A stretch of DNA of 64,000 nt. Source: Escherichia phage BYEP02. Below are positions 56,402-64,000 of this stretch, piece after piece. The translations under genes were made by a program, and so were the position numbers. The stretch lies in sequence record OR757454.1; one strand, 5' to 3'. Every line of letters begins with the position of its first letter. Position 1 is the stretch's first letter. The notes under the pieces were generated by a model. That model was not told the DNA's origin, searched no databases, and saw only the letters and a program-made list of their open reading frames with translations.

Positions 56402-57052
56402 CATGAGCAATTATTCTGCAGTTAAATACCAACTTGCTGGTCCTATTAAGGATGCATTGGCTTATGCATGGGGAGTATTTGCAGCAAACACTGACTATCC
56501 TTGCTTAACTCGTAAAGAGTTTGAAGGAATTGACTATGATCGTGAGACTAATTTAAATCTGACTAAATTAGAAGTAATTACGATTATGGAACAAGCATTT
56601 TGCTATCTTAATAGTAAAAGCCCAATTAAAGGTGTGTTTGTTTTTGATGACGCAGTTAATTTCGTAGCATTTAACAAGATTGCTGACGTTATAAATAATA
56701 TTGAAGATCAATGGTCAGTCCGTCGTCTGATGCAAGCCCTAGGTACGGATTTGATTGTTAATAACTTCGACCGCATGTATTGGGTAAAATTATTTGCTTT
56801 AGATTATCTTGATAAATTTAACTCAGGTTATGATTATTATATCGTTCCTGATACTCGTCAAGATCATGAAATGGATGCGGCTAGGGCGATGGGTGCTACA
56901 GTAATTCATGTAGTTCGTCCTGGTCAAAAATCCAATGATACTCATATTACAGAAGCTGGATTGCCAATTCGTGATGGTGATTTAGTAATTACAAACGATG
57001 GTTCTCTTGAAGAACTTTTTTCTAAAATTAAAAATACACTAAAGGTACTATA

Positions 57053-57053: not shown

Positions 57054-57904
<851 letters not shown>

Positions 57905-57916
57905 TTTCACAAAGTT

Positions 57917-57947
57917 GTTTACACGTTGATGAGGTAGTGATACTATT
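57917..57947 (+). promoter_or_regulatory. T4-early-type promoter (GTTTAC, 18 nt, TACTAT) upstream of ipI
   Basis: -35 GTTTAC with conserved upstream TTCACAAAGTTG; -10 TACTAT. Confidence 0.5.
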
Positions 57948-57976
57948 ATCTCATCAAAATTAATTAGGAAAATAAA

Positions 57977-58341
57977 ATGAAAACTTTCAAAGAGTTTACT
58001 ACAAAAACTACCCCGGTTTCTACTATTACTGAAGCTACTCTTACTTCTGAAGTTATTAAAGCAAATAAAGGACGAGAAGGTAAACCAATGATTAGTTTGG
58101 TTGATGGCGAAGAAATCAAAGGTACTGTTTACCTAGGTGATGGGTGGTCTGCTAAAAAGGATGGTGCTACAATCTGGTTGATGGCGAAGAAATCAAAGGT
58201 ACTGTTTACCTAGGTGATGGGTGGTCTGCTAAAAAGGATGGTGCTACAATCGTTATCTCTCCTGCTGAAGAAACTGCGTTGTTTAAAGCTAAACACATTT
58301 CTGCGGCACATCTCAAGATTATTGCTAAAAATCTTTTGTAA
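57977..58341 (+). CDS. ipI: internal protein I (capsid-packaged, injected), one 77-nt duplication inside
   Basis: MKTFKEFTTKTTPVSTITEA|TLTSEVIKANKGREGKPMISLVDGEEIKGTVYLGDGWSAKKDGATIVISPAEETALF...; capsid-targeting N-terminus with gp21-type L/I-x-E site. Confidence 0.8.
58100..58253. repeat. 77-nt tandem duplication
   Basis: Adjacent copies; in ipI. Confidence 0.85.
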
Positions 58342-58359
58342 TAAATATTTCACAAAGTT

Positions 58360-58389
58360 GTTTACATAGGGTTTTAGTTGTGATACTAT
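58360..58389 (+). promoter_or_regulatory. T4-early-type promoter upstream of the membrane-protein ORF
   Basis: Near-identical to the 57917 promoter (TTCACAAAGTTGTTTACA ... GTGATACTATTA). Confidence 0.5.
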
Positions 58390-58417
58390 TACCCTATCAA
58401 CTACTGAGGAGAATAAA

Positions 58418-58680
58418 ATGAAACGTTGTGAATTAATTCGAAATGTTGCTATTGCAATTTCTGCTTCTGCTTTTAGTTTTTCAATGTTTGTTGGATTTAT
58501 ATGTGGATTATTAACTACAGCAGAAAATGTGTTTTCACTTGTAGTAGCATTTTTAATTGGTTTAATGTTGGATTTATATGTGGATTATTAACTACAGCAG
58601 AAAATGTGTTTTCACTTGTAGTAGCATTTTTAATTGGTTTAATTGCTGTCGTTATGGATAAAATTTCTAAAGGTGAATAG
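58418..58680 (+). CDS. small hydrophobic (membrane) protein, one 77-nt duplication inside
   Basis: MKRCELIRNVAIAISASAFSFSMFVGFICGLL...; two predicted TM stretches; early promoter upstream. Confidence 0.45.
58490..58643. repeat. 77-nt tandem duplication
   Basis: Adjacent copies; in small membrane-protein ORF. Confidence 0.85.
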
Positions 58681-58681
58681 A

Positions 58682-59065
58682 ATGTATAAAGTGTACGCGG
58701 ATTATCAGGCTAATCCATCTGAAAAGCCAGGTTGTCAAATTGGATGGGCTCATGATACTTTGCTTGAAGCAGTAGATGCTGCTCAAAAATTAGGATATAA
58801 ATATGTAGAGATTGTTCAACTACCATCAGGAACAGTTATTACTCTTGAAGAGTTCAATAACATTAAACCAAACTTTTTACTTTTTGCAGGTGATAATTAT
58901 TATCCTCGTGGTGGATATGCTGATTTAATCGCGAAAGCCGCTACTGAAGATGAACTTCGTGATATTATCAAAGAAAATGAAAACAAACCGATGTATGGTT
59001 CTAATCGCTTTGATTGGTGGCAAATTGTAAATGCCCATACTCATACTATTGTTGATGAAGGTTGA
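58682..59065 (+). CDS. hypothetical protein (127 aa)
   Basis: ORF with AAAGGTGAA RBS (the track's upstream start at 58643 is less likely). Confidence 0.5.
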   Translation: MYKVYADYQANPSEKPGCQIGWAHDTLLEAVDAAQKLGYKYVEIVQLPSGTVITLEEFNNIKPNFLLFAGDNYYPRGGYADLIAKAATEDELRDIIKENENKPMYGSNRFDWWQIVNAHTHTIVDEG

Positions 59066-59355
59066 TAATGATTCTTTATGCTAAAGTATCATCCATTGAA
59101 AATGGATATAAATATGATCAAGAAGCAGTTAAAGCCTTGATTGATGATTATGGCATTTTAACATGTTTTGAAGTTGAAAAGGTTTATGTTGACCGTTCAT
59201 CTTCTCAAGTTAAATTAGTGAAGGAAGACCGTAAATTTAATACAGTAAATTTTGATTTCTTTATTGAAACAGAAAAAGGTCCTCTTGAATATGATATTTT
59301 CAAGAATCCTTTGGGTCTTGAATGCATCGTAAATATGTATTATCATAAATGGTAA
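59062..59355 (+). CDS. hypothetical protein (97 aa)
   Basis: ORF overlapping previous stop (ATGA). Confidence 0.5.
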   Translation: MIMILYAKVSSIENGYKYDQEAVKALIDDYGILTCFEVEKVYVDRSSSQVKLVKEDRKFNTVNFDFFIETEKGPLEYDIFKNPLGLECIVNMYYHKW

Positions 59356-59506
59356 ATATGCTTTAAGAATTATTTGTTATTATTAACTCATATCGCACTG
59401 ATTAATACCCTCTATCATCAAGGGTTCTTTAAATATGCTTTAAGAATTATTTGTTATTATTAACTCATACCGCACTGATTAATACCCTCTATCATCAAGG
59501 GTTCTT
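59353..59506. repeat. 77-nt tandem duplication
   Basis: Period 77 verified; intergenic, duplicates the MotA-box promoter. Confidence 0.9.
59436..59460 (+). promoter_or_regulatory. candidate MotA-dependent middle promoter upstream of the HNH gene
   Basis: MotA-box-like ATGCTTTA followed about 12 nt later by TATTAT; an identical copy at 59359-59383 lies in a 77-nt duplicate. Confidence 0.4.
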
Positions 59507-59542
59507 GTTTGAGAGCCTTTGTTAATAATTGGGAATCATATT

Positions 59543-60151
59543 ATGGATACTAAATTAGCTGAAATTTTTGAAGGAAAACATCCAAATTTTAGTACAGGAA
59601 AGCTGAAAGATAAAATAATAAAAGAAAATATTTTTCCATATGAGTGTGCAATTTGTAAAATTTCAAAATGGCAAAATAAGCATATTGTTCTGCAATTAGA
59701 CCATATTGACGGAAATAACAAAAATCATCTTAAATCAAATTTAAGATTATTATGTCCAAATTGCCATTCGCAAACTGATACTTTTGCTGGTAAAAATATT
59801 AAAAATAATAAAAAGCGTTATAATGTTAGTGATGAAGAAATTTTAAACGCATTATTAAATTCTGCTACTATATCATCTGCAATTACTTCATTAGGTTTAA
59901 GTAAAGGCGGAAACTATAAAAGATTCATTAAAATTGCTAATGATAATAAATTATATCATTTACTGGTAAATATTAATGAAAACATTTTAACTGATGAAAT
60001 TTACGAAGAATTAGTTAAAATTGATTATTCTAAATTTGGATGGGTTAGTAAAGCTGCTAAAATAATAGGTATAAGCCCACAAAAAGCTAGAAAATGGATA
60101 GAACGAAAGTGTCCAGAATTGATAGAACAATCTTTTTCACGTAATAAATAA
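59543..60151 (+). CDS. HNH homing endonuclease
   Basis: HNH motif HIDGNNKNHLKSNLRLLCPNCH; sits directly upstream of the tRNA cluster; MotA-box promoter upstream. Confidence 0.75.
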   Translation: MDTKLAEIFEGKHPNFSTGKLKDKIIKENIFPYECAICKISKWQNKHIVLQLDHIDGNNKNHLKSNLRLLCPNCHSQTDTFAGKNIKNNKKRYNVSDEEILNALLNSATISSAITSLGLSKGGNYKRFIKIANDNKLYHLLVNINENILTDEIYEELVKIDYSKFGWVSKAAKIIGISPQKARKWIERKCPELIEQSFSRNK

Positions 60152-60157
60152 TATAGA

Positions 60158-60244
60158 GCGAGAATGGTCAAATTGGTAAAGGCACAGCACTTAAAATGCT
60201 GCGGAATGATTTCCTTGTGGGTTCGAGTCCCACTTCTCGCACCA
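60158..60244 (+). tRNA. tRNA-Leu (anticodon TAA), type II
   Basis: Cloverleaf read by eye: anticodon loop CTTAAAA, long variable arm, GGTTCGAGTCC T-arm, CCA encoded. Confidence 0.8.
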
Positions 60245-60249
60245 AATTT

Positions 60250-60323
<74 letters not shown>

Positions 60324-60477
60324 ATTTAATTTACTCCGTGTAGCTCAGTTTGGTAGAGCGTCTGCTTTGGGAGCAGAATGTCGCAGGTTCAAATCCTGCA
60401 ATTTAATTTACTCCGTGTAGCTCAGTTTGGTAGAGCGCCTGATTTGGGATCAGGAGGTCCAAGGTTCAAATCCTTGT
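60324..60477. repeat. 77-nt tandem duplication (diverged copies) over tRNA-Pro
   Basis: Period 77; 10 mismatches in the 3' 40 nt, arranged as compensatory pairs in the anticodon and T stems. Confidence 0.85.
60334..60400 (+). pseudogene. truncated tRNA-Pro-like copy lacking the 3' acceptor strand
   Basis: Copy 1 of a 77-nt duplication; 5' 37 nt identical to tRNA-Pro, anticodon and T stems differ by compensatory changes. Confidence 0.6.
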
Positions 60478-60484
60478 ATGGAGA
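60411..60484 (+). tRNA. tRNA-Pro (anticodon TGG)
   Basis: Acceptor CTCCGTG/TATGGAG (G-U pairs); anticodon loop TTTGGGA; T-arm GGTTCAAATCC. Confidence 0.75.
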
Positions 60485-60486
60485 CT

Positions 60487-60576
60487 GGAGGCGTGGCAGA
60501 GTGGTTTAATGCACCGGTCTTGAAAACCGGCAGTCGCTCCGGCGACTCATAGGTTCAAATCCTATCGCCTCCGCCA
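60487..60576 (+). tRNA. tRNA-Ser (anticodon TGA), type II
   Basis: Acceptor GGAGGCG/CGCCTCC; anticodon loop CTTGAAA; long variable arm; CCA encoded. Confidence 0.8.
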
Positions 60577-60685
60577 GTTTTGCTGATTTAGCTCAGTAGG
60601 TAGAGCACAGTCGCTCCGGCGACTCATAGGTTCAAATCCTATCGCCTCCGCCAGTTTTTGCTGATTTAGCTCAGTAGGTAGAGCA
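60532..60685. repeat. 77-nt tandem duplication over the tRNA-Ser/tRNA-Thr junction
   Basis: Period 77; one T indel between copies; makes a chimeric pseudo-tRNA. Confidence 0.9.
60583..60653 (+). pseudogene. chimeric tRNA fragment (Thr 5' part fused to Ser 3' half)
   Basis: Created by the 77-nt duplication at 60532-60685; no matching acceptor stem. Confidence 0.6.
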
Positions 60686-60735
60686 CCTCACTTGTAATGA
60701 GGACGTCGGCGGTTCGATTCCGTCAATCAGCACCA
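60660..60735 (+). tRNA. tRNA-Thr (anticodon TGT)
   Basis: Acceptor GCTGATT/AATCAGC; anticodon loop CTTGTAA; T-arm GGTTCGATTCC; CCA encoded. Confidence 0.8.
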
Positions 60736-60736
60736 A

Positions 60737-60811
60737 GGCCCTGTAGCTGGAAGGTTCAAGCAAGCGACTCATAATCGCCAGATGGTGGTTCAATTCCACC
60801 CAGGGCCACCA
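60737..60811 (+). tRNA. tRNA with anticodon CAT (Ile2-type or Met)
   Basis: Acceptor GGCCCTG/CAGGGCC; loop CTCATAA; T-arm GGTTCAATTCC; D-arm atypical. Confidence 0.6.
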
Positions 60812-60820
60812 AATTAATTT

Positions 60821-60907
60821 GGGGAGTTATCCCGTAGAGGTAGCGGTGTGGACTGTAAATTCATTGTCATTGCGACTCGGGTGGTTCGACTCCACCACTC
60901 CCCACCA
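60821..60907 (+). tRNA. tRNA-Tyr (anticodon GTA), type II
   Basis: Acceptor GGGGAGT/ACTCCCC; anticodon stem GTGGA/TTCAT with two G-U pairs; loop CTGTAAA; long variable arm; T-arm GGTTCGACTCC. Confidence 0.55.
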
Positions 60908-60911
60908 ATTT

Positions 60912-60986
60912 GGATGTGTAGCTCAATGGCAGAGCGATCGCCTGTTAAGCGATTGGTTATAGGTTCGAATCCTATCACGTCCGCCA
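60912..60986 (+). tRNA. tRNA-Asn (anticodon GTT)
   Basis: Acceptor GGATGTG/CACGTCC; D-arm GCTC..GAGC; anticodon stem ATCGC/GCGAT, loop CTGTTAA; T-arm GGTTCGAATCC. Confidence 0.65.
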
Positions 60987-61100
60987 AATTTGTGACAACT
61001 GTCACATTAATATCTACTTGACGCGATTATAGGGGTTGAACTGATCACTCTTCTCTTAATTTCGTGTGAAGACATCTTGATTGTTGGAGTAGGTATTAAT

Positions 61101-61176
61101 GTGGCCGTAGTTCAGTTGGTAGAACTCGAGATTGTGATTCTCGTAGTCATGGGTTCGACTCCCATCGGTCACCCCA
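61101..61176 (+). tRNA. tRNA-His (anticodon GTG)
   Basis: Acceptor GTGGCCG/CGGTCAC; anticodon stem CGAGA/TCTCG, loop TTGTGAT; T-arm GGTTCGACTCC. Confidence 0.7.
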
Positions 61177-61180
61177 ATTA

Positions 61181-61256
61181 CGGGGCATAGCTCAGAAGGA
61201 AGAGCAAGGACCTTCTAAGTCCTAGGTCGTAGGTTCGATCCCTACTGCCTCGACCA
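61181..61256 (+). tRNA. tRNA-Arg (anticodon TCT)
   Basis: Acceptor CGGGGCA/TGCCTCG; anticodon stem AGGAC/GTCCT, loop CTTCTAA; T-arm GGTTCGATCCC. Confidence 0.75.
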
Positions 61257-61274
61257 ATTATAAGTGAGGAAAAT

Positions 61275-61625
61275 ATGAAAGGTAATGTTTATTTAGTAGT
61301 TCATGATTTAACATTTTACTTCAATGAATATGAAAAACATATCTCATTTCGTGAAATTAATTTACTTTATCAACATGCGGATTATATTTATATTCAAAAC
61401 GAATTTGGTCATTGGCAATTTCTCAAAAATCGTTCATTTGGCTTAGATGGTTACGAATACTTTGAACGTAAAGACCTTTTAGATAAAATTCCGTTATCTA
61501 CGCAATATCAAAATCACAAATCTTTATATAAATGCCGTCCAATTCGAAATGTTGAATCCGCGTATGAAGCAATTGATTTATGGCGTGAACGCCGTAAACA
61601 GATTGATGCTTTAAAAGAATATTAA
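61275..61625 (+). CDS. hypothetical protein (116 aa)
   Basis: ORF with GAGGAAAA RBS directly after tRNA-Arg. Confidence 0.5.
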   Translation: MKGNVYLVVHDLTFYFNEYEKHISFREINLLYQHADYIYIQNEFGHWQFLKNRSFGLDGYEYFERKDLLDKIPLSTQYQNHKSLYKCRPIRNVESAYEAIDLWRERRKQIDALKEY

Positions 61626-61885
61626 GAAACCGGGTCGCTACCGGTAAGTCGTCGGACTGATGTTCCCTGAGTAAGGAATTGCGTTAATAATCTTTGCGTT
61701 TATTGATGCCCTCTTACATCACAGCAGAAACGGCGCACCGAATTATCGATTCGAGGAAATATCTTTGCCGTAAGCCGAGTAGCGTTTTTGACGGAACGTT
61801 CGGATATGGTCGAGATATGGCCTTTTAAAAATATTGAGTAGCGTCAACTGCTTAATAACCGGGTTCGAATCCCGGCGTTTCGTAC
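61626..61885 (+). ncRNA. candidate structured RNA with a tRNA-like T-arm at its 3' end
   Basis: About 260 nt with no ORF of 60 aa or more on either strand; 3' CCGGGTTCGAATCCCGG T-arm followed by CGTTTC complementary to the 5' GAAAC. Confidence 0.3.
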
Positions 61886-61934
61886 AAACACTTGCCTTAG
61901 CAGGTGGAACCCCGACAAGGTTGCCGCAAGGCTT

Positions 61935-61962
61935 AGCCCCGACCGAAAGGTTGGGGCTTTTT
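61935..61962 (+). terminator. terminator-like hairpin AGCCCCGACCGAAAGGTTGGGGCT + T5 (81-nt unit, copy 1)
   Basis: GNRA-loop hairpin plus U-tract. Confidence 0.55.
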
Positions 61963-62015
61963 GGTATAACACTTGCCTTAGCAGGTGGAACCCCGACAAG
62001 GTTGCCGCAAGGCTT

Positions 62016-62043
62016 AGCCCCAGCCGAAAGGTTGGGGCTTTTT
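62016..62043 (+). terminator. terminator-like hairpin, 81-nt unit copy 2
   Basis: Same hairpin with two substitutions, plus U-tract. Confidence 0.55.
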
Positions 62044-62045
62044 AG

Positions 62046-62053
62046 TATAAATA
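62046..62053 (+). promoter_or_regulatory. late promoter core TATAAATA (internal-protein-like gene)
   Basis: Exact motif 37 nt upstream of ATG 62090. Confidence 0.55.
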
Positions 62054-62089
62054 AGTATATTAAATCTACAAATTAAAACAGGAAATAAG

Positions 62090-62563
62090 ATGAAATCATA
62101 TGCTCAATTTTTAAATGAAGCGGTGTTAAATGAAGCATCTAGCACTGAAATTCAAGCTGTTGCAAAAGCTGCCATTGCCGCGGGTAAATATTCCTATAAA
62201 GATGCTTCCGATGAATCACGATTCCAATTTGCTCGTGATATGAAAGCCGAAGGATTTACAGGGAATGCAGTTAGTATGGCTTGGAAAAGTTTAGTTGCTA
62301 CTGGAGCTGCTTTTGCAAAGGCTTCAGGTAAACCTGCTCCTAAGGCTGACCCTAAAGCAGCACAAGAAAAAAATATTGCTAAAGGAATTATCTCTAGGTA
62401 TGAAGCAATTCTTAAAGAACTTTTGATAATTAAGACCGAAGGCCAGAAACTTGCGCGTGCTTATAGTTTCAAAGATAATCCACATGCTCATGACCTAGAG
62501 TATGTTGAAGACCTCCAAAAAATCATCAAAGACCGCATTTGGTCTGCTAAACAAATCAAATAA
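62090..62563 (+). CDS. internal-protein-like (IPII/IPIII-type) capsid-targeted protein (157 aa)
   Basis: N-terminus MKSYAQFLNEA resembles the T4 internal-protein capsid-targeting sequence with an L-x-E protease site; TATAAATA 37 nt upstream; terminator downstream. Confidence 0.5.
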   Translation: MKSYAQFLNEAVLNEASSTEIQAVAKAAIAAGKYSYKDASDESRFQFARDMKAEGFTGNAVSMAWKSLVATGAAFAKASGKPAPKADPKAAQEKNIAKGIISRYEAILKELLIIKTEGQKLARAYSFKDNPHAHDLEYVEDLQKIIKDRIWSAKQIK

Positions 62564-62570
62564 CATTCTT

Positions 62571-62599
62571 AGCCCCGACCAAAAGGTTGGGGCTTTTTG
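62571..62599 (+). terminator. intrinsic terminator AGCCCCGACCAAAAGGTTGGGGCT + T5 after the internal-protein-like gene
   Basis: Third copy of the same hairpin family 8 nt after the stop. Confidence 0.65.
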
Positions 62600-62731
62600 G
62601 TATCTAGGCCTTTCCGGGCCTCTCTAGGCATCATTTAGTTTATACCCTTTATAATATATTATCCTACCTTTTAATTGCCCCTCCTGACCCTAGAATTCCC
62701 TAAAACTTTTTAAAAATTTTTTCACAAAACT

Positions 62732-62761
62732 GTTTACATCCCTGTTCTTCCATGGTACTAT
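62732..62761 (+). promoter_or_regulatory. T4-early-type promoter upstream of ORF 62805
   Basis: TTCACAAAACTGTTTACA, 18 nt, TACTAT. Confidence 0.5.
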
Positions 62762-62804
62762 ACAACTATCAACTACTGATACAGAAAATAACTTGGAGAA
62801 TGAA

Positions 62805-63145
62805 ATGGATAATTACGGCGAACTGTTCAACTTCTTTATGAAATGCGTTTCAGAAGATTTCGGTCGTACAGTGAATGATATTAAAGTCATCGGTCCTGAC
62901 CATCCAACTTCTTTATGAAATGTGTTTCAGAAGATTTTGGTCGTACAGTGAATGATATTAAAGTTATCGGTCCTGATCATCCGATGTTTGAAACTTACGC
63001 AGTAATGGGTAATGAAGATGGTCAGTGGTATACTGTAAAGGTTGTGATTAACATGTTCACTGCTGAAGGTTATGTTAAACTGTCTTCTAAAGTTTACCAT
63101 GATAACGATGAAATCGCAGAAGAATATTTCAATAATATGAAATAA
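62805..63145 (+). CDS. hypothetical protein (about 88 aa), one 77-nt duplication inside
   Basis: MDNYGELFNFFMKCVSEDFGRTVNDIKVIGPDHP...; early promoter upstream. Confidence 0.5.
62828..62981. repeat. 77-nt tandem duplication
   Basis: Period 77 verified; 4 C/T differences, all at third codon positions; in ORF 62805. Confidence 0.9.
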
Positions 63146-63175
63146 GTTTACACAGGCTCATGATTGAGATATTAT
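63146..63175 (+). promoter_or_regulatory. T4-early-type promoter upstream of ORF 63202
   Basis: GTTTAC, 18 nt, TATTAT. Confidence 0.45.
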
Positions 63176-63201
63176 GAGCCTATAACTTTGAGGAGAACAT
63201 T

Positions 63202-63537
63202 ATGAAACGTAACTTTAGTAAAGCTTTTTGTAATAGAAATTATTATCCTGAAGAGCTTTTTGAATCTAAGGACTTTAAAGAGTTTAACGAACGTTCTCAA
63301 AACATGCCTGTACAATGGGTGTTAGATTATGCCAAACGTATCTTTGAAGGTGTACGTTGGTTCAGTCCTGATGATGAAGCCCCATATTTTCAAAGGGCAT
63401 GGTCTATAGTCAATCAAGCTTATATTGATGCTTTAGAAAATATTAATATTATGGATGATGATGATGCTTTGTTAATCATCGATGAGTCTATTAATAGTAG
63501 TATCGATAAATTTATTGATGAATTGGACGAAGAATAA
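63202..63537 (+). CDS. hypothetical acidic protein (111 aa)
   Basis: ORF with GAGGAGAA RBS; early promoter upstream. Confidence 0.5.
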   Translation: MKRNFSKAFCNRNYYPEELFESKDFKEFNERSQNMPVQWVLDYAKRIFEGVRWFSPDDEAPYFQRAWSIVNQAYIDALENINIMDDDDALLIIDESINSSIDKFIDELDEE

Positions 63538-63559
63538 GTTTACAAACTCTTGGGAGTAG
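63530..63559 (+). promoter_or_regulatory. T4-early-type promoter upstream of ORF 63613
   Basis: GTTTAC, 18 nt, TATAAT; the -10 sits inside inverted repeat GGGAGTA...TACTCCC. Confidence 0.5.
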
Positions 63560-63612
63560 AGTATAATACTCCCACGGATTATAAAAACCCTTAATTAACT
63601 AAAGGAAATGCT

Positions 63613-64000
63613 ATGAACATGCTGAAGAAAATTGTTGAGTTTATTCGCACTAAACTTGGTTCTGCTATGGCTAAAAATTTATCTGTTGAAGAACAGTATA
63701 CTGCTGCGGCAGCAAAACTACTTGATAAGATTAAAGATCTAAAAACTGCTTCTGTTAAATCTATTAATGAAGAAAAACGTATTCGTGAACTTATTGTCGA
63801 AAAGAATCGACAGGCCGAATCAAAAGAGCGTGAAATTCGCAAGCTTCTTTCTGAAGGTCAAGATGTAACAATGCATGCTAAACTCGGCTTGCTATATCGT
63901 CGAACAGCTGAACAGTTGACTACTAAAGCTGATGGTTATGCTGAAATGCGAATTGAAATCGCCAAGAAAGTAGTTGAATTGGATGATGCTCGCCAAGAAC
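63613..64000 (+). CDS. hypothetical coiled-coil protein, 5' part (runs off the right edge)
   Basis: [43 protein letters not shown]...; no stop before the window end; early promoter with TATAAT upstream. Confidence 0.45.

What the first reader, a model, noticed from the sequence alone, without database searches (positions are those of the whole stretch)
57977..64000. Cluster of capsid-targeted and small early proteins as candidate injected anti-defence effectors
IPI (a known anti-restriction protein in T4) and a second protein with an internal-protein-type N-terminus (MKSYAQFLNEA, late promoter upstream) flank several small uncharacterised ORFs, each with its own early promoter: a 61-aa two-TM protein, 127-aa, 97-aa, about 88-aa, 111-aa and a coiled-coil protein running off the window. 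This hypervariable region is where T-even phages keep host-takeover and counter-defence genes. No function can be assigned from sequence alone.
Basis: inference. Interest (0 to 1): 0.45.

Follow-up and report, generated by a model that had tools for sequence, protein, structure and literature searches.

The report
T4-type internal-protein and early-gene region
This is the well-known ipI–tRNA–e region of a T4-like coliphage, broken up by assembly artefacts. It carries the known injected anti-restriction protein IPI, one unannotated second capsid-targeted protein, and early genes that are not injected, one of which (e.6) looks like a divergent PspA/Vipp1 membrane protein.

Summary
The ORFs exist, but only after removing seven artefactual tandem duplications (six of 77 nt, one of 81 nt). 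At least 52 such duplications pepper the window and are absent from reference phages. The region is 99% identical to Escherichia phage slur03 and collinear with T4 57B–ipI–trna.4/.3/.2–tRNAs–rnaD/C–e.8–e.7–e.6.

Only two proteins carry a capsid-targeting leader.
- IPI is 98% identical to T4's, the known GmrSD inhibitor.
- The 157-aa protein has an MKSYAQFLNE|A leader, conserved L-x-E cleavage motifs, a TATAAATA late promoter conserved in three genera, and pI 9.4. Its cassette is bracketed by copies of the rnaC terminator and is missing from T4. A 95.5% identical homologue was detected in purified Yersinia phage fD1 particles. It is "hypothetical" in every listed database record.

I read it as an unannotated internal protein at a third IP locus, target unknown.

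The other ORFs have no leader and are acidic or neutral. They are driven by five early promoters, and the 127-aa and 95-aa ORFs have none of their own.

Novelty: a new member of a known kind.

The parts
57372..57904 (+). 57B = Acb1 anti-CBASS 2H-phosphoesterase. It lies just upstream of the finding and contains the artefactual duplicate 57438-57591.
   Evidence: The de-duplicated translation is 100% identical over 151 aa to T4 57B. The 57B/Acb1 function comes from PMC9117128 and 10.1101/2025.11.20.689424.
57917..57946 (+). Early-type promoter (GTTTACA-N17-TACTAT) embedded in a hairpin, upstream of ipI.
   Evidence: Pattern search: 5 matches in 64 kb against 0.08 expected. Hairpin -15.5 kcal/mol, z = -4.5.
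57977..58341 (+). ipI, internal protein I, 95 aa after removing the 77-nt artefact copy 58175-58251. Leader MKTFKEFTTKTTPVSTITE|A.
   Evidence: Pfam PF11634 IPI_T4 E=7.3e-54 over residues 20-95. 97.9% identical to T4 IPI. The frameshift in the raw window gives a 78-aa ORF.
58360..58389 (+). Early-type promoter with hairpin. It is the only promoter for the trna.4-trna.3-trna.2 operon.
   Evidence: The three ORFs abut one another (58680/58682, 59065/59068).
58418..58680 (+). Trna.4 homologue, 61 aa, two hydrophobic helices. Contains the artefact copy 58566-58642.
   Evidence: 98.4% identical to T4 Trna.4. phrog_1692, function unknown. Hydropathy peaks at residues 12-28 and 38-54.
58682..59065 (+). 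Trna.3-like protein, 127 aa, acidic. The C-terminal half is conserved (NFLLFAGDNYYPxGGYxDL...FDWWQIVNA).
   Evidence: 58% identical to T4 Trna.3. phrog_1411. Precomputed Pfam PF26894 carries no function. No PDB relative.
59068..59355 (+). Trna.2 homologue, 95 aa, acidic.
   Evidence: 94.7% identical to T4 Trna.2. phrog_2023, function unknown.
59543..60151 (+). Free-standing HNH homing endonuclease, 202 aa. Absent from the T4 locus, where GIY-YIG segB sits among the tRNA genes.
   Evidence: phrog_14736 HNH endonuclease E=2.5e-123. Pfam HNH is below its cut-off at 17.3 bits. Motif LDHIDGNNKNHLKSNLRLLCPNCH is visible in the sequence. RefSeq annotation in slur03. T4 map.
60158..61256 (+). Cluster of ten tRNA genes (Leu, Gly, Pro, Ser, Thr, Met/Ile2-CAT, Tyr, Asn, His, Arg), with two artefact duplications inside (60319-60472, 60531-60658).
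   Evidence: ARAGORN. Rfam finds an extra truncated tRNA at 60341-60399, which is the duplicated allele. slur03 annotation.
61275..61625 (+). 116-aa ORF of unknown function, 18 nt after tRNA-Arg, with no promoter of its own. Absent from T4 and Ozark.
   Evidence: phrog_3355, function unknown..
61624..61884 (+). Small stable RNAs rnaD and rnaC (approximate ends, taken from the alignment with T4).
   Evidence: Near-identical alignment with the annotated T4 rnaD/rnaC.
61935..62039 (+). rnaC terminator hairpin. It appears twice only because of the 81-nt artefact duplication 61874-62035.
   Evidence: Terminator scan. All twelve best phage records span 220 nt for the 301-nt query, meaning one copy.
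62046..62053 (+). T4-type late promoter TATAAATA, 37 nt upstream of the 157-aa gene.
   Evidence: The same box in the same place occurs in WG01 (Dhakavirus) and fHe-Yen9-01 (Tegunavirus).
62090..62563 (+). Candidate internal protein, 157 aa, pI 9.4, all-helical. Leader MKSYAQFLNE|AVLNE|ASS.
   Evidence: Leader matches T4 IPII/IPIII MKTYQEFIAE|A and slur03 gp261 MKTYSEFLSESILNEA. The motif is unique to this ORF and ipI in the window. pI. AF2 pLDDT 77. phrog_2280, function unknown. The fD1 homologue g140 was detected in particles.
62568..62603 (+). Second copy of the rnaC terminator hairpin (97% identical to 61932-67). It closes the cassette.
   Evidence: Direct-repeat family D14. Terminator scan. 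T4 runs straight from the first hairpin into the sequence that follows this one.
62732..62761 (+). Early-type promoter of e.8. This one has no hairpin.
62805..63145 (+). e.8 homologue, 87 aa, acidic. Contains the artefact copy 62905-62981.
   Evidence: 98.9% identical to T4 e.8. phrog_2678, function unknown.
63146..63175 (+). Early-type promoter with hairpin, upstream of e.7.
   Evidence: Hairpin -15.7 kcal/mol, z = -4.2.
63202..63537 (+). e.7 homologue, 111 aa, very acidic (pI 4.3). The slot is variable: Ozark and fD1 have a 58-aa ORF here.
   Evidence: 77.5% identical to T4 e.7. phrog_7266..
63538..63567 (+). Early-type promoter with hairpin, upstream of e.6.
   Evidence: Hairpin -14.0 kcal/mol, z = -3.2.
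63613..64000 (+). e.6 homologue, first 129 of 197 codons. A divergent PspA/IM30/Vipp1-like protein.
   Evidence: The slur03 full-length protein is 99% identical to T4 e.6. A family profile hits Vipp1/PspA chains collinearly at E=2.6e-4 to 4e-3. 5 of 32 members hit PF04012, best 8.9e-10. Member P0212 scores 35.1 bits against the 33.9 cut-off. AF2 topology.

Best explanation
**What the stretch is.** It is the ipI–tRNA–e plastic region of a slur03-like Tequatrovirus, recovered as a chimeric, artefact-laden contig. Four functional classes sit side by side.

**1. Two late-made, capsid-targeted proteins.**
- IPI is known. Its leader takes it into the prohead core and the prohead protease removes the leader at ITE|A. 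It is injected with the DNA and blocks the GmrS/GmrD type IV restriction enzyme.
- For the 157-aa protein I infer the same route. It would be transcribed from its own TATAAATA late promoter and targeted by MKSYAQFLNE. It would be cut after LNE (residue 10 and/or 15) to give a basic helical protein of about 15.5 kDa, then packaged and injected.
- Its gene is a cassette of late promoter, ORF and terminator, bracketed by two copies of the rnaC terminator hairpin. That repeat is the likely recombination substrate for its gain or loss.
- Its target is not shown. By analogy with Ip1-3 and Bas37_0260, it is most likely a modification-dependent (type IV) restriction enzyme subtype.

**2. Early, non-packaged genes.** Trna.4 (a two-helix membrane protein), Trna.3 and Trna.2 form one operon. 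e.8, e.7 and e.6 each have their own promoter embedded in a hairpin. Functions are unknown except for e.6. e.6 is a divergent PspA/IM30/Vipp1 relative, so I infer that it binds and stabilises or remodels the inner membrane during infection.

**3. A selfish HNH homing endonuclease** next to the tRNA block.

**4. Ten tRNAs and the rnaD/rnaC small RNAs.**

**Shown versus inferred.** Shown: identities, leaders, promoters, cassette borders, the artefacts, and particle association of a close homologue. Inferred: cleavage, injection, the target of the 157-aa protein, and the membrane role of e.6.
For: **Identity of the region.**
- 99.1% identity to slur03 over the whole stretch.
- Gene-for-gene collinearity with T4.

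**Artefacts.**

**IPI.**. Function from PMC3012670 and PMC12373910.

**The 157-aa protein.**
- The leader matches IPII/IPIII, slur03 gp261/gp259, the second Ozark ip and WG01 Ip7.
- The motif occurs only in ipI and this ORF across all six frames of 64 kb.
- [LMF]-x-E followed by A/Q-S is conserved across the family.
- The late promoter is conserved in Tequatrovirus, Dhakavirus and Tegunavirus.
- pI is 9.4, against 9.2-9.5 for IPI-III and 4.3-7.8 for the neighbouring ORFs.
- The cassette borders coincide with the hairpin repeat, and T4 lacks exactly that interval.
- In fHe-Yen9-01 a paralogue with the same kind of leader sits in tandem.
- fD1 g140 (150/157 identical) passed the strict particle-proteome threshold, as did the IPI homologue g146. 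e.8, Trna.2 and Trna.4 were not detected.

**Early genes.** Five promoter matches, all in this stretch, against 0.08 expected.

**e.6.**
Against: **The 157-aa protein.**
- There is no direct evidence of cleavage, packaging or injection for this exact protein.
- The fD1 particle proteome is unspecific. It detected 49% of all phage gene products and 672 host proteins, and also flagged e.6, e.5, Trna.3 and rIIA.
- The protein has no detectable fold or sequence relative outside its own narrow family, so nothing points to a target.
- Ten ip genes tested against GmrSD variants gave no new pairs beyond Ip1-3. A type IV target is therefore an analogy, not a rule.
- I could not read Repoila et al. 1994. 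I cannot exclude that this ORF is one of their ip4-ip10.

**e.6.**
- T4-type e.6 itself does not hit PF04012.
- hhalign against E. coli PspA gives only 40% probability.

**ipI.** It has an early-type promoter and no TATAAATA in its own upstream spacer. How it is expressed late is not explained here.
Confidence: 0.7

Rival explanations
1. On this view the whole cluster (61-, 127-, 95-, 87- and 111-aa ORFs and the coiled-coil protein) consists of capsid-packaged, injected anti-defence effectors.
For: - They lie between or beside two leader-bearing genes, next to 57B/Acb1, in a plastic region.
- The Trna.3, e.5 and e.6 homologues were flagged as particle-associated in fD1.
Against: - None has the leader motif.
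- All are acidic or neutral.
- They are driven by early promoters.
- e.8, Trna.2 and Trna.4 were not detected in fD1 particles.
- The fD1 list includes obvious carry-over proteins.
- Most are 77-99% identical to T4 genes, and e.6 is conserved across genera.
Confidence: 0.04
2. The 157-aa protein is packaged but is not a counter-defence factor. It would be a basic DNA-condensing or core protein that helps packaging or ejection.
For: - Its basic charge is like that of the other internal proteins.
- Internal-protein lysines contact packaged DNA and are proposed to aid packaging (PMC3012670).
- Ip4-10 showed no reproducible GmrSD inhibition.
Against: - The gene is dispensable in nature. It is absent from T4 and from most Tegunavirus relatives.
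- It behaves as a mobile cassette.
- All four internal proteins with known function (Ip1, Ip2, Ip3, Bas37_0260) inhibit type IV restriction.
Confidence: 0.2
3. The 157-aa protein is not packaged at all. The leader-like N-terminus and promoter would be leftovers of the recombination module that moves ip cassettes, and the fD1 detection would be lysate carry-over.
For: - The particle proteome is unspecific.
- Conserved flanks and leaders are the proposed recombination substrates (PMC4122927).
- The gene lies outside the two described IP loci.
Against: - The leader and the L-x-E motif are conserved at the protein level across members only 38-42% identical. That argues for selection on the peptide.
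- A late promoter, not an early one, is conserved in three genera.
Confidence: 0.08
4. e.6 is only a generic coiled-coil protein, and its resemblance to PspA/Vipp1 is compositional.
For: - There is no PF04012 hit for the T4-type sequence.
- Coiled-coil profiles attract spurious matches: many unrelated coiled-coil families appear.
- The bias terms are high.
Against: - PspA_IM30 is the family matched by most members (5 of 32) and with by far the best E-value, 8.9e-10.
- One full-length member passes Pfam's curated cut-off. It is tied to e.6 at E=1.7e-21 over its whole length and sits in a T4-like contig.
- The PDB hits are nine Vipp1/PspA entries. All align residue 1 to residue 1 over about 145 residues.
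- The AF2 model has the alpha0, hairpin, alpha4, alpha5 order.
Confidence: 0.2
5. The 77-nt tandem duplications are real features of the phage genome.
For: They are present in the sequence as given.
Against: - There are 52 of them with one exact period, spread evenly over 64 kb.
- They frameshift conserved and essential genes.
- They are absent from slur03 and from all the best phage records.
- Each junction coincides with a change in identity to the reference, 95.7-100%, as expected when pieces from a mixture of strains are joined.
Confidence: 0.01

Closest known systems
T4 internal proteins Ip1/Ip2/Ip3 and the ip4-ip10 cassettes of T-even phages (Repoila et al. 1994; Bair et al. 2007; Silas et al. 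2025, PMC12373910), plus Bas37_0260 (HIDEN-SEQ preprint 10.1101/2025.11.20.689424)
   Same: ipI here is the T4 gene itself (98% identical). The 157-aa protein shares with this class:
- the roughly 10-residue leader
- the L/I-x-E cleavage motif
- a basic charge
- late transcription
- cassette organisation with conserved flanks
- dispensability
- sequence unrelatedness of the mature part
   Different: - The 157-aa gene lies in neither of the two described IP loci (57B–trna.4 and e–denV). It sits about 4 kb from ipI, between rnaC and e.8.
- It is named 'hypothetical' in every listed record of the 511 phage records that hold it, even where neighbouring genes are labelled Ip7/Ip9.
- Its leader is extended by a second LNEA repeat.
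- No target is known.
PspA / IM30 / Vipp1 (Pfam PF04012; bacterial members of the ESCRT-III superfamily)
   Same: - The e.6 family profile aligns from residue 1 over about 145 residues with Vipp1 and PspA chains.
- Some members pass the Pfam model.
- The predicted order of helices is an N-terminal helix, a long hairpin and two short C-terminal helices.
- The size is similar: 197 aa against 222 aa for E. coli PspA.
   Different: - e.6 is phage-encoded and early-expressed.
- It is very divergent. T4-type e.6 alone is not recognised by Pfam.
- It has no PspBC/PspF partners nearby.
- Oligomerisation and membrane binding are untested.
PeSL promoter-early/stem-loop modules of T4-like phages (Arbiol et al. 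2010; Comeau et al. 2014, PMC4122927)
   Same: - The promoters fit the reported TTTACW-N17-TAYWAT consensus for the T4/PST pair.
- They are tied to stem-loops.
- They sit at the borders of variable ORFs.
   Different: - Here the stem spans the spacer and the -10 box itself, rather than lying just upstream of the promoter.
- The 157-aa cassette uses a late promoter and a terminator repeat instead.
T4 SegB and other free-standing homing endonucleases of the tRNA region (Brok-Volchanskaya et al. 2008, cited in PMC4122927)
   Same: It is a free-standing endonuclease gene at the tRNA cluster, so its likely role is preferential inheritance of the flanking region in mixed infections.
   Different: - It is HNH rather than GIY-YIG.
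- It sits between trna.2 and tRNA-Leu, not inside the tRNA block.

Membership tests
IPI (Pfam PF11634, IPI_T4) | Sequence match to the mature 76-residue IPI* domain, above the curated cut-off | tested here: met
   180.1 bits against a cut-off of 25, residues 20-95 covering profile positions 1-76. 93 of 95 residues identical to T4 IPI.
IPI (Pfam PF11634, IPI_T4) | Inhibition of GmrS/GmrD restriction after injection | not testable with these tools
   Taken from the literature for T4 IPI (PMC3012670, PMC12373910). Assumed here because the protein is 98% identical.
T-even internal proteins (leader-bearing, packaged): the 157-aa protein | Conserved N-terminal leader of about 10-11 residues (MK[T/S]Y.[E/Q]F[I/L].E) | tested here: met
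   The leader MKSYAQFLNE compares with MKTYQEFIAE (T4 IPII/III), MKTYSEFLSE (slur03 gp261) and MKSYQEFINE (WG01 Ip7). In the window, only ipI and this ORF match.
T-even internal proteins: the 157-aa protein | Prohead-protease cleavage motif (L/I-x-E followed by A/S) at the end of the leader. The consensus is from my own knowledge of T4 gp21. | tested here: met
   FLNE|A and VLNE|A are present. [LMF]-x-E followed by A/Q-S is conserved in all full-length family members. Actual cleavage was not tested.
T-even internal proteins: the 157-aa protein | Late transcription | tested here: met
   TATAAATA lies 37 nt upstream. It is the only intergenic + strand copy in the region. It is conserved in WG01 and fHe-Yen9-01. 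No early promoter is present. No transcript data were examined.
T-even internal proteins: the 157-aa protein | Presence in purified virions | tested here: inconclusive
   fD1 g140 (95.5% identical) is listed as particle-associated at the strict threshold. That data set also lists many non-structural proteins.
T-even internal proteins: the 157-aa protein | Basic, lysine-rich mature protein | tested here: met
   pI 9.4 (9.5 after leader removal), with 25 K+R against 19 D+E. IPI-III are 9.2-9.5.
T-even internal proteins: the 157-aa protein | Location in one of the two described IP loci | tested here: not met
   It lies between the rnaC terminator and e.8. It is not next to 57B and not in the e–denV interval. 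This is a descriptive feature rather than a mechanistic one.
T-even internal proteins: the 157-aa protein | Injection into the host and inhibition of a host defence | not testable with these tools
   No target can be inferred. There are no fold or family relatives.
T-even internal proteins: the other small ORFs (61, 127, 95, 116, 87, 111 aa and e.6) | N-terminal leader | tested here: not met
   None matches the strict or the loose motif. N-termini are listed.
PspA/IM30/Vipp1 (PF04012): e.6 | Match to the Pfam model above the curated cut-off | tested here: inconclusive
   T4-type e.6 has no hit. 5 of 32 family members hit, best 8.9e-10. P0212 scores 35.1 bits against 33.9, over residues 7-146 and profile positions 3-143. 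P0212 is linked to e.6 at E=1.7e-21 over its full length.
PspA/IM30/Vipp1 (PF04012): e.6 | Collinear sequence similarity to solved PspA/Vipp1 proteins | tested here: met
   Profile A5 against PDB: 8qfv 2.6e-4, 9eom 4.8e-4, 8qbw 1.2e-3, 7o3w 1.4e-3, 6zvr 4e-3 and 4whe 0.08. All align residues 1 to about 146 with residues 1 to about 147. hhalign against E. coli PspA gives E=3e-4 and 40% probability.
PspA/IM30/Vipp1 (PF04012): e.6 | Fold: N-terminal amphipathic helix, alpha1/alpha2-3 hairpin, alpha4, alpha5 | tested here: inconclusive
PspA/IM30/Vipp1 (PF04012): e.6 | Ring or rod oligomers and membrane binding | not testable with these tools
   Needs purified protein.
HNH homing endonucleases | HNH (beta-beta-alpha-metal) motif | tested here: met
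   phrog_14736 E=2.5e-123 plus ten further HNH PHROGs. Pfam HNH scores 17.3 bits, below its 21.4 cut-off. The motif HIDGN...N...CPNCH is visible in the sequence.

The most novel reading that the evidence does not exclude
The rnaC–e.8 junction is a third internal-protein cassette locus of T-even-type phages that has not been recognised. It carries one or two leader-bearing genes behind a conserved late promoter. Its 157-aa product, present in about 500 sequenced phages and never annotated, would be an injected inhibitor of a host defence that no known Ip covers. Separately, the conserved early gene e.6 of T4 would be a phage-encoded PspA/ESCRT-III-type membrane protein that keeps the inner membrane intact, for example against membrane-depolarising abortive-infection effectors.
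Probability: 0.3. Interest if true: 0.6.

Novelty: new member of a known kind. Interest (0 to 1): 0.4.

Why it matters
**The 157-aa protein.**
- Internal proteins are the T-even phages' pre-made, injected counter-measures. Every one with a known function blocks a type IV restriction enzyme, and each is specific for one enzyme subtype (PMC12373910 and the HIDEN-SEQ preprint).
- An unannotated, widespread family at a new locus would give a ready bait for finding a new defence-inhibitor pair. The family occurs in 511 phage records across Escherichia, Shigella, Yersinia, Klebsiella and others.
- It would also be a marker for predicting the host range of therapeutic T4-like phages.
- It can be tested directly. 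BASEL phages Bas40 and Bas42 carry the gene, and public proteomics data (PXD026812) could show the processed N-terminus.

**e.6.** The link to PspA/Vipp1 would give a first functional handle on a conserved gene of the best-studied phage. It would also place an ESCRT-III-type protein in a virulent phage's early programme.

**Practical point.** The window is a chimeric assembly with more than 50 frameshifting artefacts. Any ORF-level reading of this contig must be made on a de-duplicated sequence.

Tried and rejected
**The 157-aa protein.**
- Sequence search against the PDB found nothing; the best hit was E=0.36.
- The AF2 model searched against BFVD and the PDB found only its own family; the next best hits were E of about 0.8 and 1.2.
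- Pfam, NCBIfam and PADLOC gave nothing.
- Repoila et al. 1994 is not held, so the identity of ip4-ip10 could not be checked.
- The Silas et al. supplements mention ip4-10 but hold no sequence matching the leader.

**Trna.3.**
- A family profile against the PDB gave nothing.
- Its Pfam family PF26894 is not in the local library and carries no function.

**Literature.**
- A search for trna.2/.3/.4 found no paper using these names.
- Searches on e.6, e.7, e.8 and ip4, ip7, ip8 were swamped by unrelated uses of those strings.

**e.6.**
- The narrow alignment A4 gave only sub-threshold Vipp1 hits, E=1.2-3.3, and 0.5% hhalign probability.
- The link appeared only after an exhaustive profile search widened the family.
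- The afdb50 fold library was unavailable.
- The ten most distant family members do not hit PF04012 on their own.

**Virion proteomics.**
- phiR1-RT proteomics could not be used because that phage lacks the 157-aa homologue.
- The fPS phage paper contains no proteomics.

**Ideas rejected.**
- That the 81-nt repeat is a real rnaC/rnaD-type duplication. All the best phage records have one copy.
- That the 157-aa 'internal virion protein' at slur03's denV locus is a paralogue. Its sequence is unrelated apart from the leader.

Full report
**1. The sequence is a T4-type region with assembly artefacts**

ORF listing of 55-64 kb showed pairs of overlapping ORFs that repeat the same peptide. Repeat finding explained them. 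There are tandem direct repeats of exactly 77 nt, 90-100% identical, plus one of 81 nt.

A scan of the whole window for tandem repeats of period 20-199 found 52 cases of period 77 and one of period 81, and none of any other period.

The stretch 57900-64000 is 99.1% identical to Escherichia phage slur03 (Tequatrovirus). It is 539 nt longer than the matching slur03 segment. BLAST shows the window as consecutive pieces whose ends overlap by 77 nt on slur03, with identity changing from piece to piece between 95.7% and 100%. For the 81-nt repeat, all twelve best phage records span 220 nt for a 301-nt query, which means one copy.

I conclude that the contig is a chimera of closely related strains joined with duplicated overlaps. 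A k-mer of 77 is a common assembler setting (my own knowledge). Seven artefacts fall inside the finding. They frameshift ipI, trna.4 and e.8, and they add a truncated tRNA.

Removing one copy of each restores ORFs of 95, 61, 127, 95, 202, 116, 157, 87 and 111 aa, plus an open end. Each of the nine sequences looked up is present, residue for residue, in public databases.

**2. Gene identities**

The slur03 and T4 annotations and pairwise comparison give this order:

| Gene | Identity to T4 | Note |
|---|---|---|
| 57B | 100% | the anti-CBASS nuclease Acb1 (PMC9117128) |
| ipI | 97.9% | |
| trna.4 | 98.4% | |
| trna.3 | 58% | |
| trna.2 | 94.7% | |
| HNH endonuclease | not at this T4 locus | |
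| ten tRNAs | | |
| 116-aa ORF | not at this T4 locus | |
| rnaD, rnaC | near-identical | |
| 157-aa ORF | not in T4 | |
| e.8 | 98.9% | |
| e.7 | 77.5% | |
| e.6 | 99% | cut by the window end |

Pfam recognises only IPI_T4 (E=7e-54) and, below threshold, HNH. PHROGs places every ORF in a family, all of unknown function except IPI and the HNH endonuclease. NCBIfam and PADLOC add nothing.

**3. Promoters**

The T4 early-promoter pattern GTTTACA-N17-TANNAT occurs five times in the 64 kb, against 0.08 expected. All five are on the + strand inside this stretch, 25-45 nt upstream of ipI, trna.4, e.8, e.7 and e.6.

trna.3 and trna.2 abut trna.4 and share its promoter. The 116-aa ORF follows tRNA-Arg by 18 nt.

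Four of the five promoters lie inside strong hairpins whose stems span the spacer and the -10 box (-14 to -15.7 kcal/mol, z -3.2 to -4.5). This resembles the PeSL promoter/stem-loop modules linked to gene shuffling in T4-like phages (PMC4122927).

The late-promoter box TATAAATA occurs three times on the + strand in the region. Two copies lie inside ORFs. One is intergenic, 37 nt before the 157-aa gene.

**4. The 157-aa protein is best read as an internal protein**

- **(a) Leader.** Its N-terminus MKSYAQFLNE|A matches the leaders of T4 IPII/IPIII (MKTYQEFIAE|A), the second Ozark ip, slur03 gp259 and WG01 Ip7. The extended form FLNEAVLNEA matches slur03 'internal head protein' gp261, FLSESILNEA. 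A leader motif search over all six frames of the window hits only ipI and this ORF.
- **(b) Cleavage motif.** Across the family, including members only 38-42% identical from Yersinia and Klebsiella phages, the leader and an [LMF]-x-E|A/Q-S motif are kept.
- **(c) Late promoter.** It is conserved at the same place in WG01 (Dhakavirus) and fHe-Yen9-01 (Tegunavirus).
- **(d) Charge.** pI is 9.4, like IPI-III (9.2-9.5). The neighbouring ORFs have pI 4.3-7.8.
- **(e) Cassette.** The gene is a late promoter, ORF and terminator lying between two copies of the rnaC terminator hairpin (family D14). T4 goes directly from the first hairpin into the sequence that follows the second.
- **(f) Tandem paralogue.** In fHe-Yen9-01 a 189-aa paralogue with the leader MLQYNEFLKE sits immediately upstream, so the site can hold tandem cassettes.
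- **(g) Particle proteomics.** In Yersinia phage fD1 the homologue g140 (150/157 identical) is listed as particle-associated at the strict LC-MS/MS threshold, as is the IPI homologue g146. e.8, Trna.2 and Trna.4 were not detected (Table S3 of PMC8309999).

The caveat on (g) is that the data set detected 49% of all phage gene products and 672 host proteins.

The protein is predicted to be all-helical (pLDDT 77). It has no relative outside its own narrow family in the PDB, BFVD or a 5.8-billion-sequence search. It is 'hypothetical' in every listed record of the 511 phage records that hold it. In WG01 the genes at the ipI locus carry the notes Ip7 and Ip9, while this one has none.

**5. What the literature already says**

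The idea that T-even internal proteins are a diverse set of injected defence inhibitors sharing only the leader is established (PMC3012670).
- Ip1, Ip2 and Ip3 each block a different GmrSD type IV enzyme (PMC12373910).
- Bas37_0260, a leader-bearing protein at the ipI locus, blocks McrBC.
- Ten ip genes tested against further GmrSD clusters gave no new pairs beyond Ip1-3.

It does not extend to the early genes.

**6. e.6 is a divergent PspA/IM30/Vipp1 relative**

e.6 is conserved at 47% identity or more in T4-like phages of Aeromonas, Pectobacterium, Klebsiella, Serratia and Yersinia. It is not hypervariable cargo.
- An exhaustive profile search found a compact family of 47 clusters; the full-length members are about 200 aa.
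- With a 32-member alignment, eight of the nine best PDB sequence hits are Vipp1/PspA chains and a ninth (E. coli PspA, 4whe) ranks 16th. All nine align from residue 1 over about 145 residues, the top eight at E=2.6e-4 to 4e-3.
- PF04012 is the Pfam family hit by the most members (5 of 32, best 8.9e-10).
- Member P0212 is linked to e.6 at E=1.7e-21 and lies on a 156-kb T4-like contig. It passes the curated Pfam cut-off.
- The AF2 model shows an N-terminal helix, a long hairpin and two short helices.

Against this reading:
- T4-type e.6 alone is not recognised by Pfam.
- hhalign against E. coli PspA gives 40% probability.

I found no paper linking PspA to T4-like phages in the library. A membrane-stabilising role is inferred. 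'Host specificity protein', the name some databases give e.6, has no visible basis.

**7. Verdict**

- **Observation:** partly confirmed. The ORFs, the leader and the late promoter are real. The raw sequence is artefact-ridden. Two promoter claims are wrong, and several genes were overlooked.
- **Interpretation:** partly supported. It holds for two of about ten genes.
- **New here:** the assignment of a widespread unannotated family as a probable internal protein at a third locus, with published particle-proteome support, and the link between e.6 and PspA.

Both are new members of known kinds, and both can be tested directly.

Noticed in passing
whole window, e.g. 1269, 4837, 5833 ... 62821 (list): At least 52 tandem duplications of exactly 77 nt are spread over all 64 kb. 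Copies are 90-100% identical. They are absent from reference phages and frameshift many genes (gp1, 57A, 57B, gp3 and others). The contig looks like a chimera of co-assembled strains.
   Followed up: yes
window 61874-62035: A single 81-nt tandem duplication (90% identical) of the rnaC 3' trailer and terminator. All the best phage records have one copy, so it is probably the same artefact with a different overlap length.
   Followed up: partly
window 57372-57904: Immediately upstream of ipI lies 57B, 100% identical to T4 57B/Acb1, the anti-CBASS cyclic-nucleotide phosphodiesterase. A proven early counter-defence gene thus sits next to the injected one.
   Followed up: partly
window 57926-57957, 58366-58397, 63154-63181, 63548-63578: Four of the five early promoters lie inside 11-14-bp hairpins whose stems cover the spacer and the -10 box (z -3.2 to -4.5). 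These are composite promoter/stem-loop elements like the PeSL modules. The e.8 promoter has none.
   Followed up: partly
window 62090-62140; L005:1007-1060: The leader of the 157-aa protein carries an internal repeat of the cleavage motif (FLNEA-VLNEA). The unrelated slur03 internal head protein gp261 has the same format (FLSES-ILNEA). Shorter family members have a single motif.
   Followed up: partly
protein P0148: A 94-aa public protein fuses the middle of Trna.3 to the C-terminus of the 157-aa protein, at a shared IKEN/FKDN stretch. It is either a recombinant or another short-contig assembly chimera.
   Followed up: no
window 60341-60399: Rfam finds an eleventh, truncated tRNA. It is a second allele of tRNA-Pro with compensating stem changes, created by the artefact duplication 60319-60472. 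This shows that two strains with different tRNA-Pro alleles were co-assembled.
   Followed up: partly
window 63202-63537; L003:5021-5197; L009:3191-3367: The e.7 slot is variable. T4 and this phage have a 111-aa acidic protein (77% identical to each other). Ozark and fD1 have an unrelated 58-aa ORF there.
   Followed up: no
window 57947-57976: ipI has an early-type promoter and no TATAAATA box in its upstream spacer. The nearest + strand late box upstream is at 56690, inside gene 1. How enough IPI is made late for packaging is not explained by this sequence.
   Followed up: no
fD1 Table S3 (PMC8309999), genes g136, g137, g144: The homologues of e.5, e.6 and Trna.3 were also flagged as particle-associated in fD1, although they lack a leader. 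This is either carry-over or real association and cannot be decided from the table.
   Followed up: no
window 58796-58803 and 59107-59114: Two further TATAAATA boxes lie on the + strand inside the trna.3 and trna.2 ORFs. Whether they act as late promoters was not examined.
   Followed up: no
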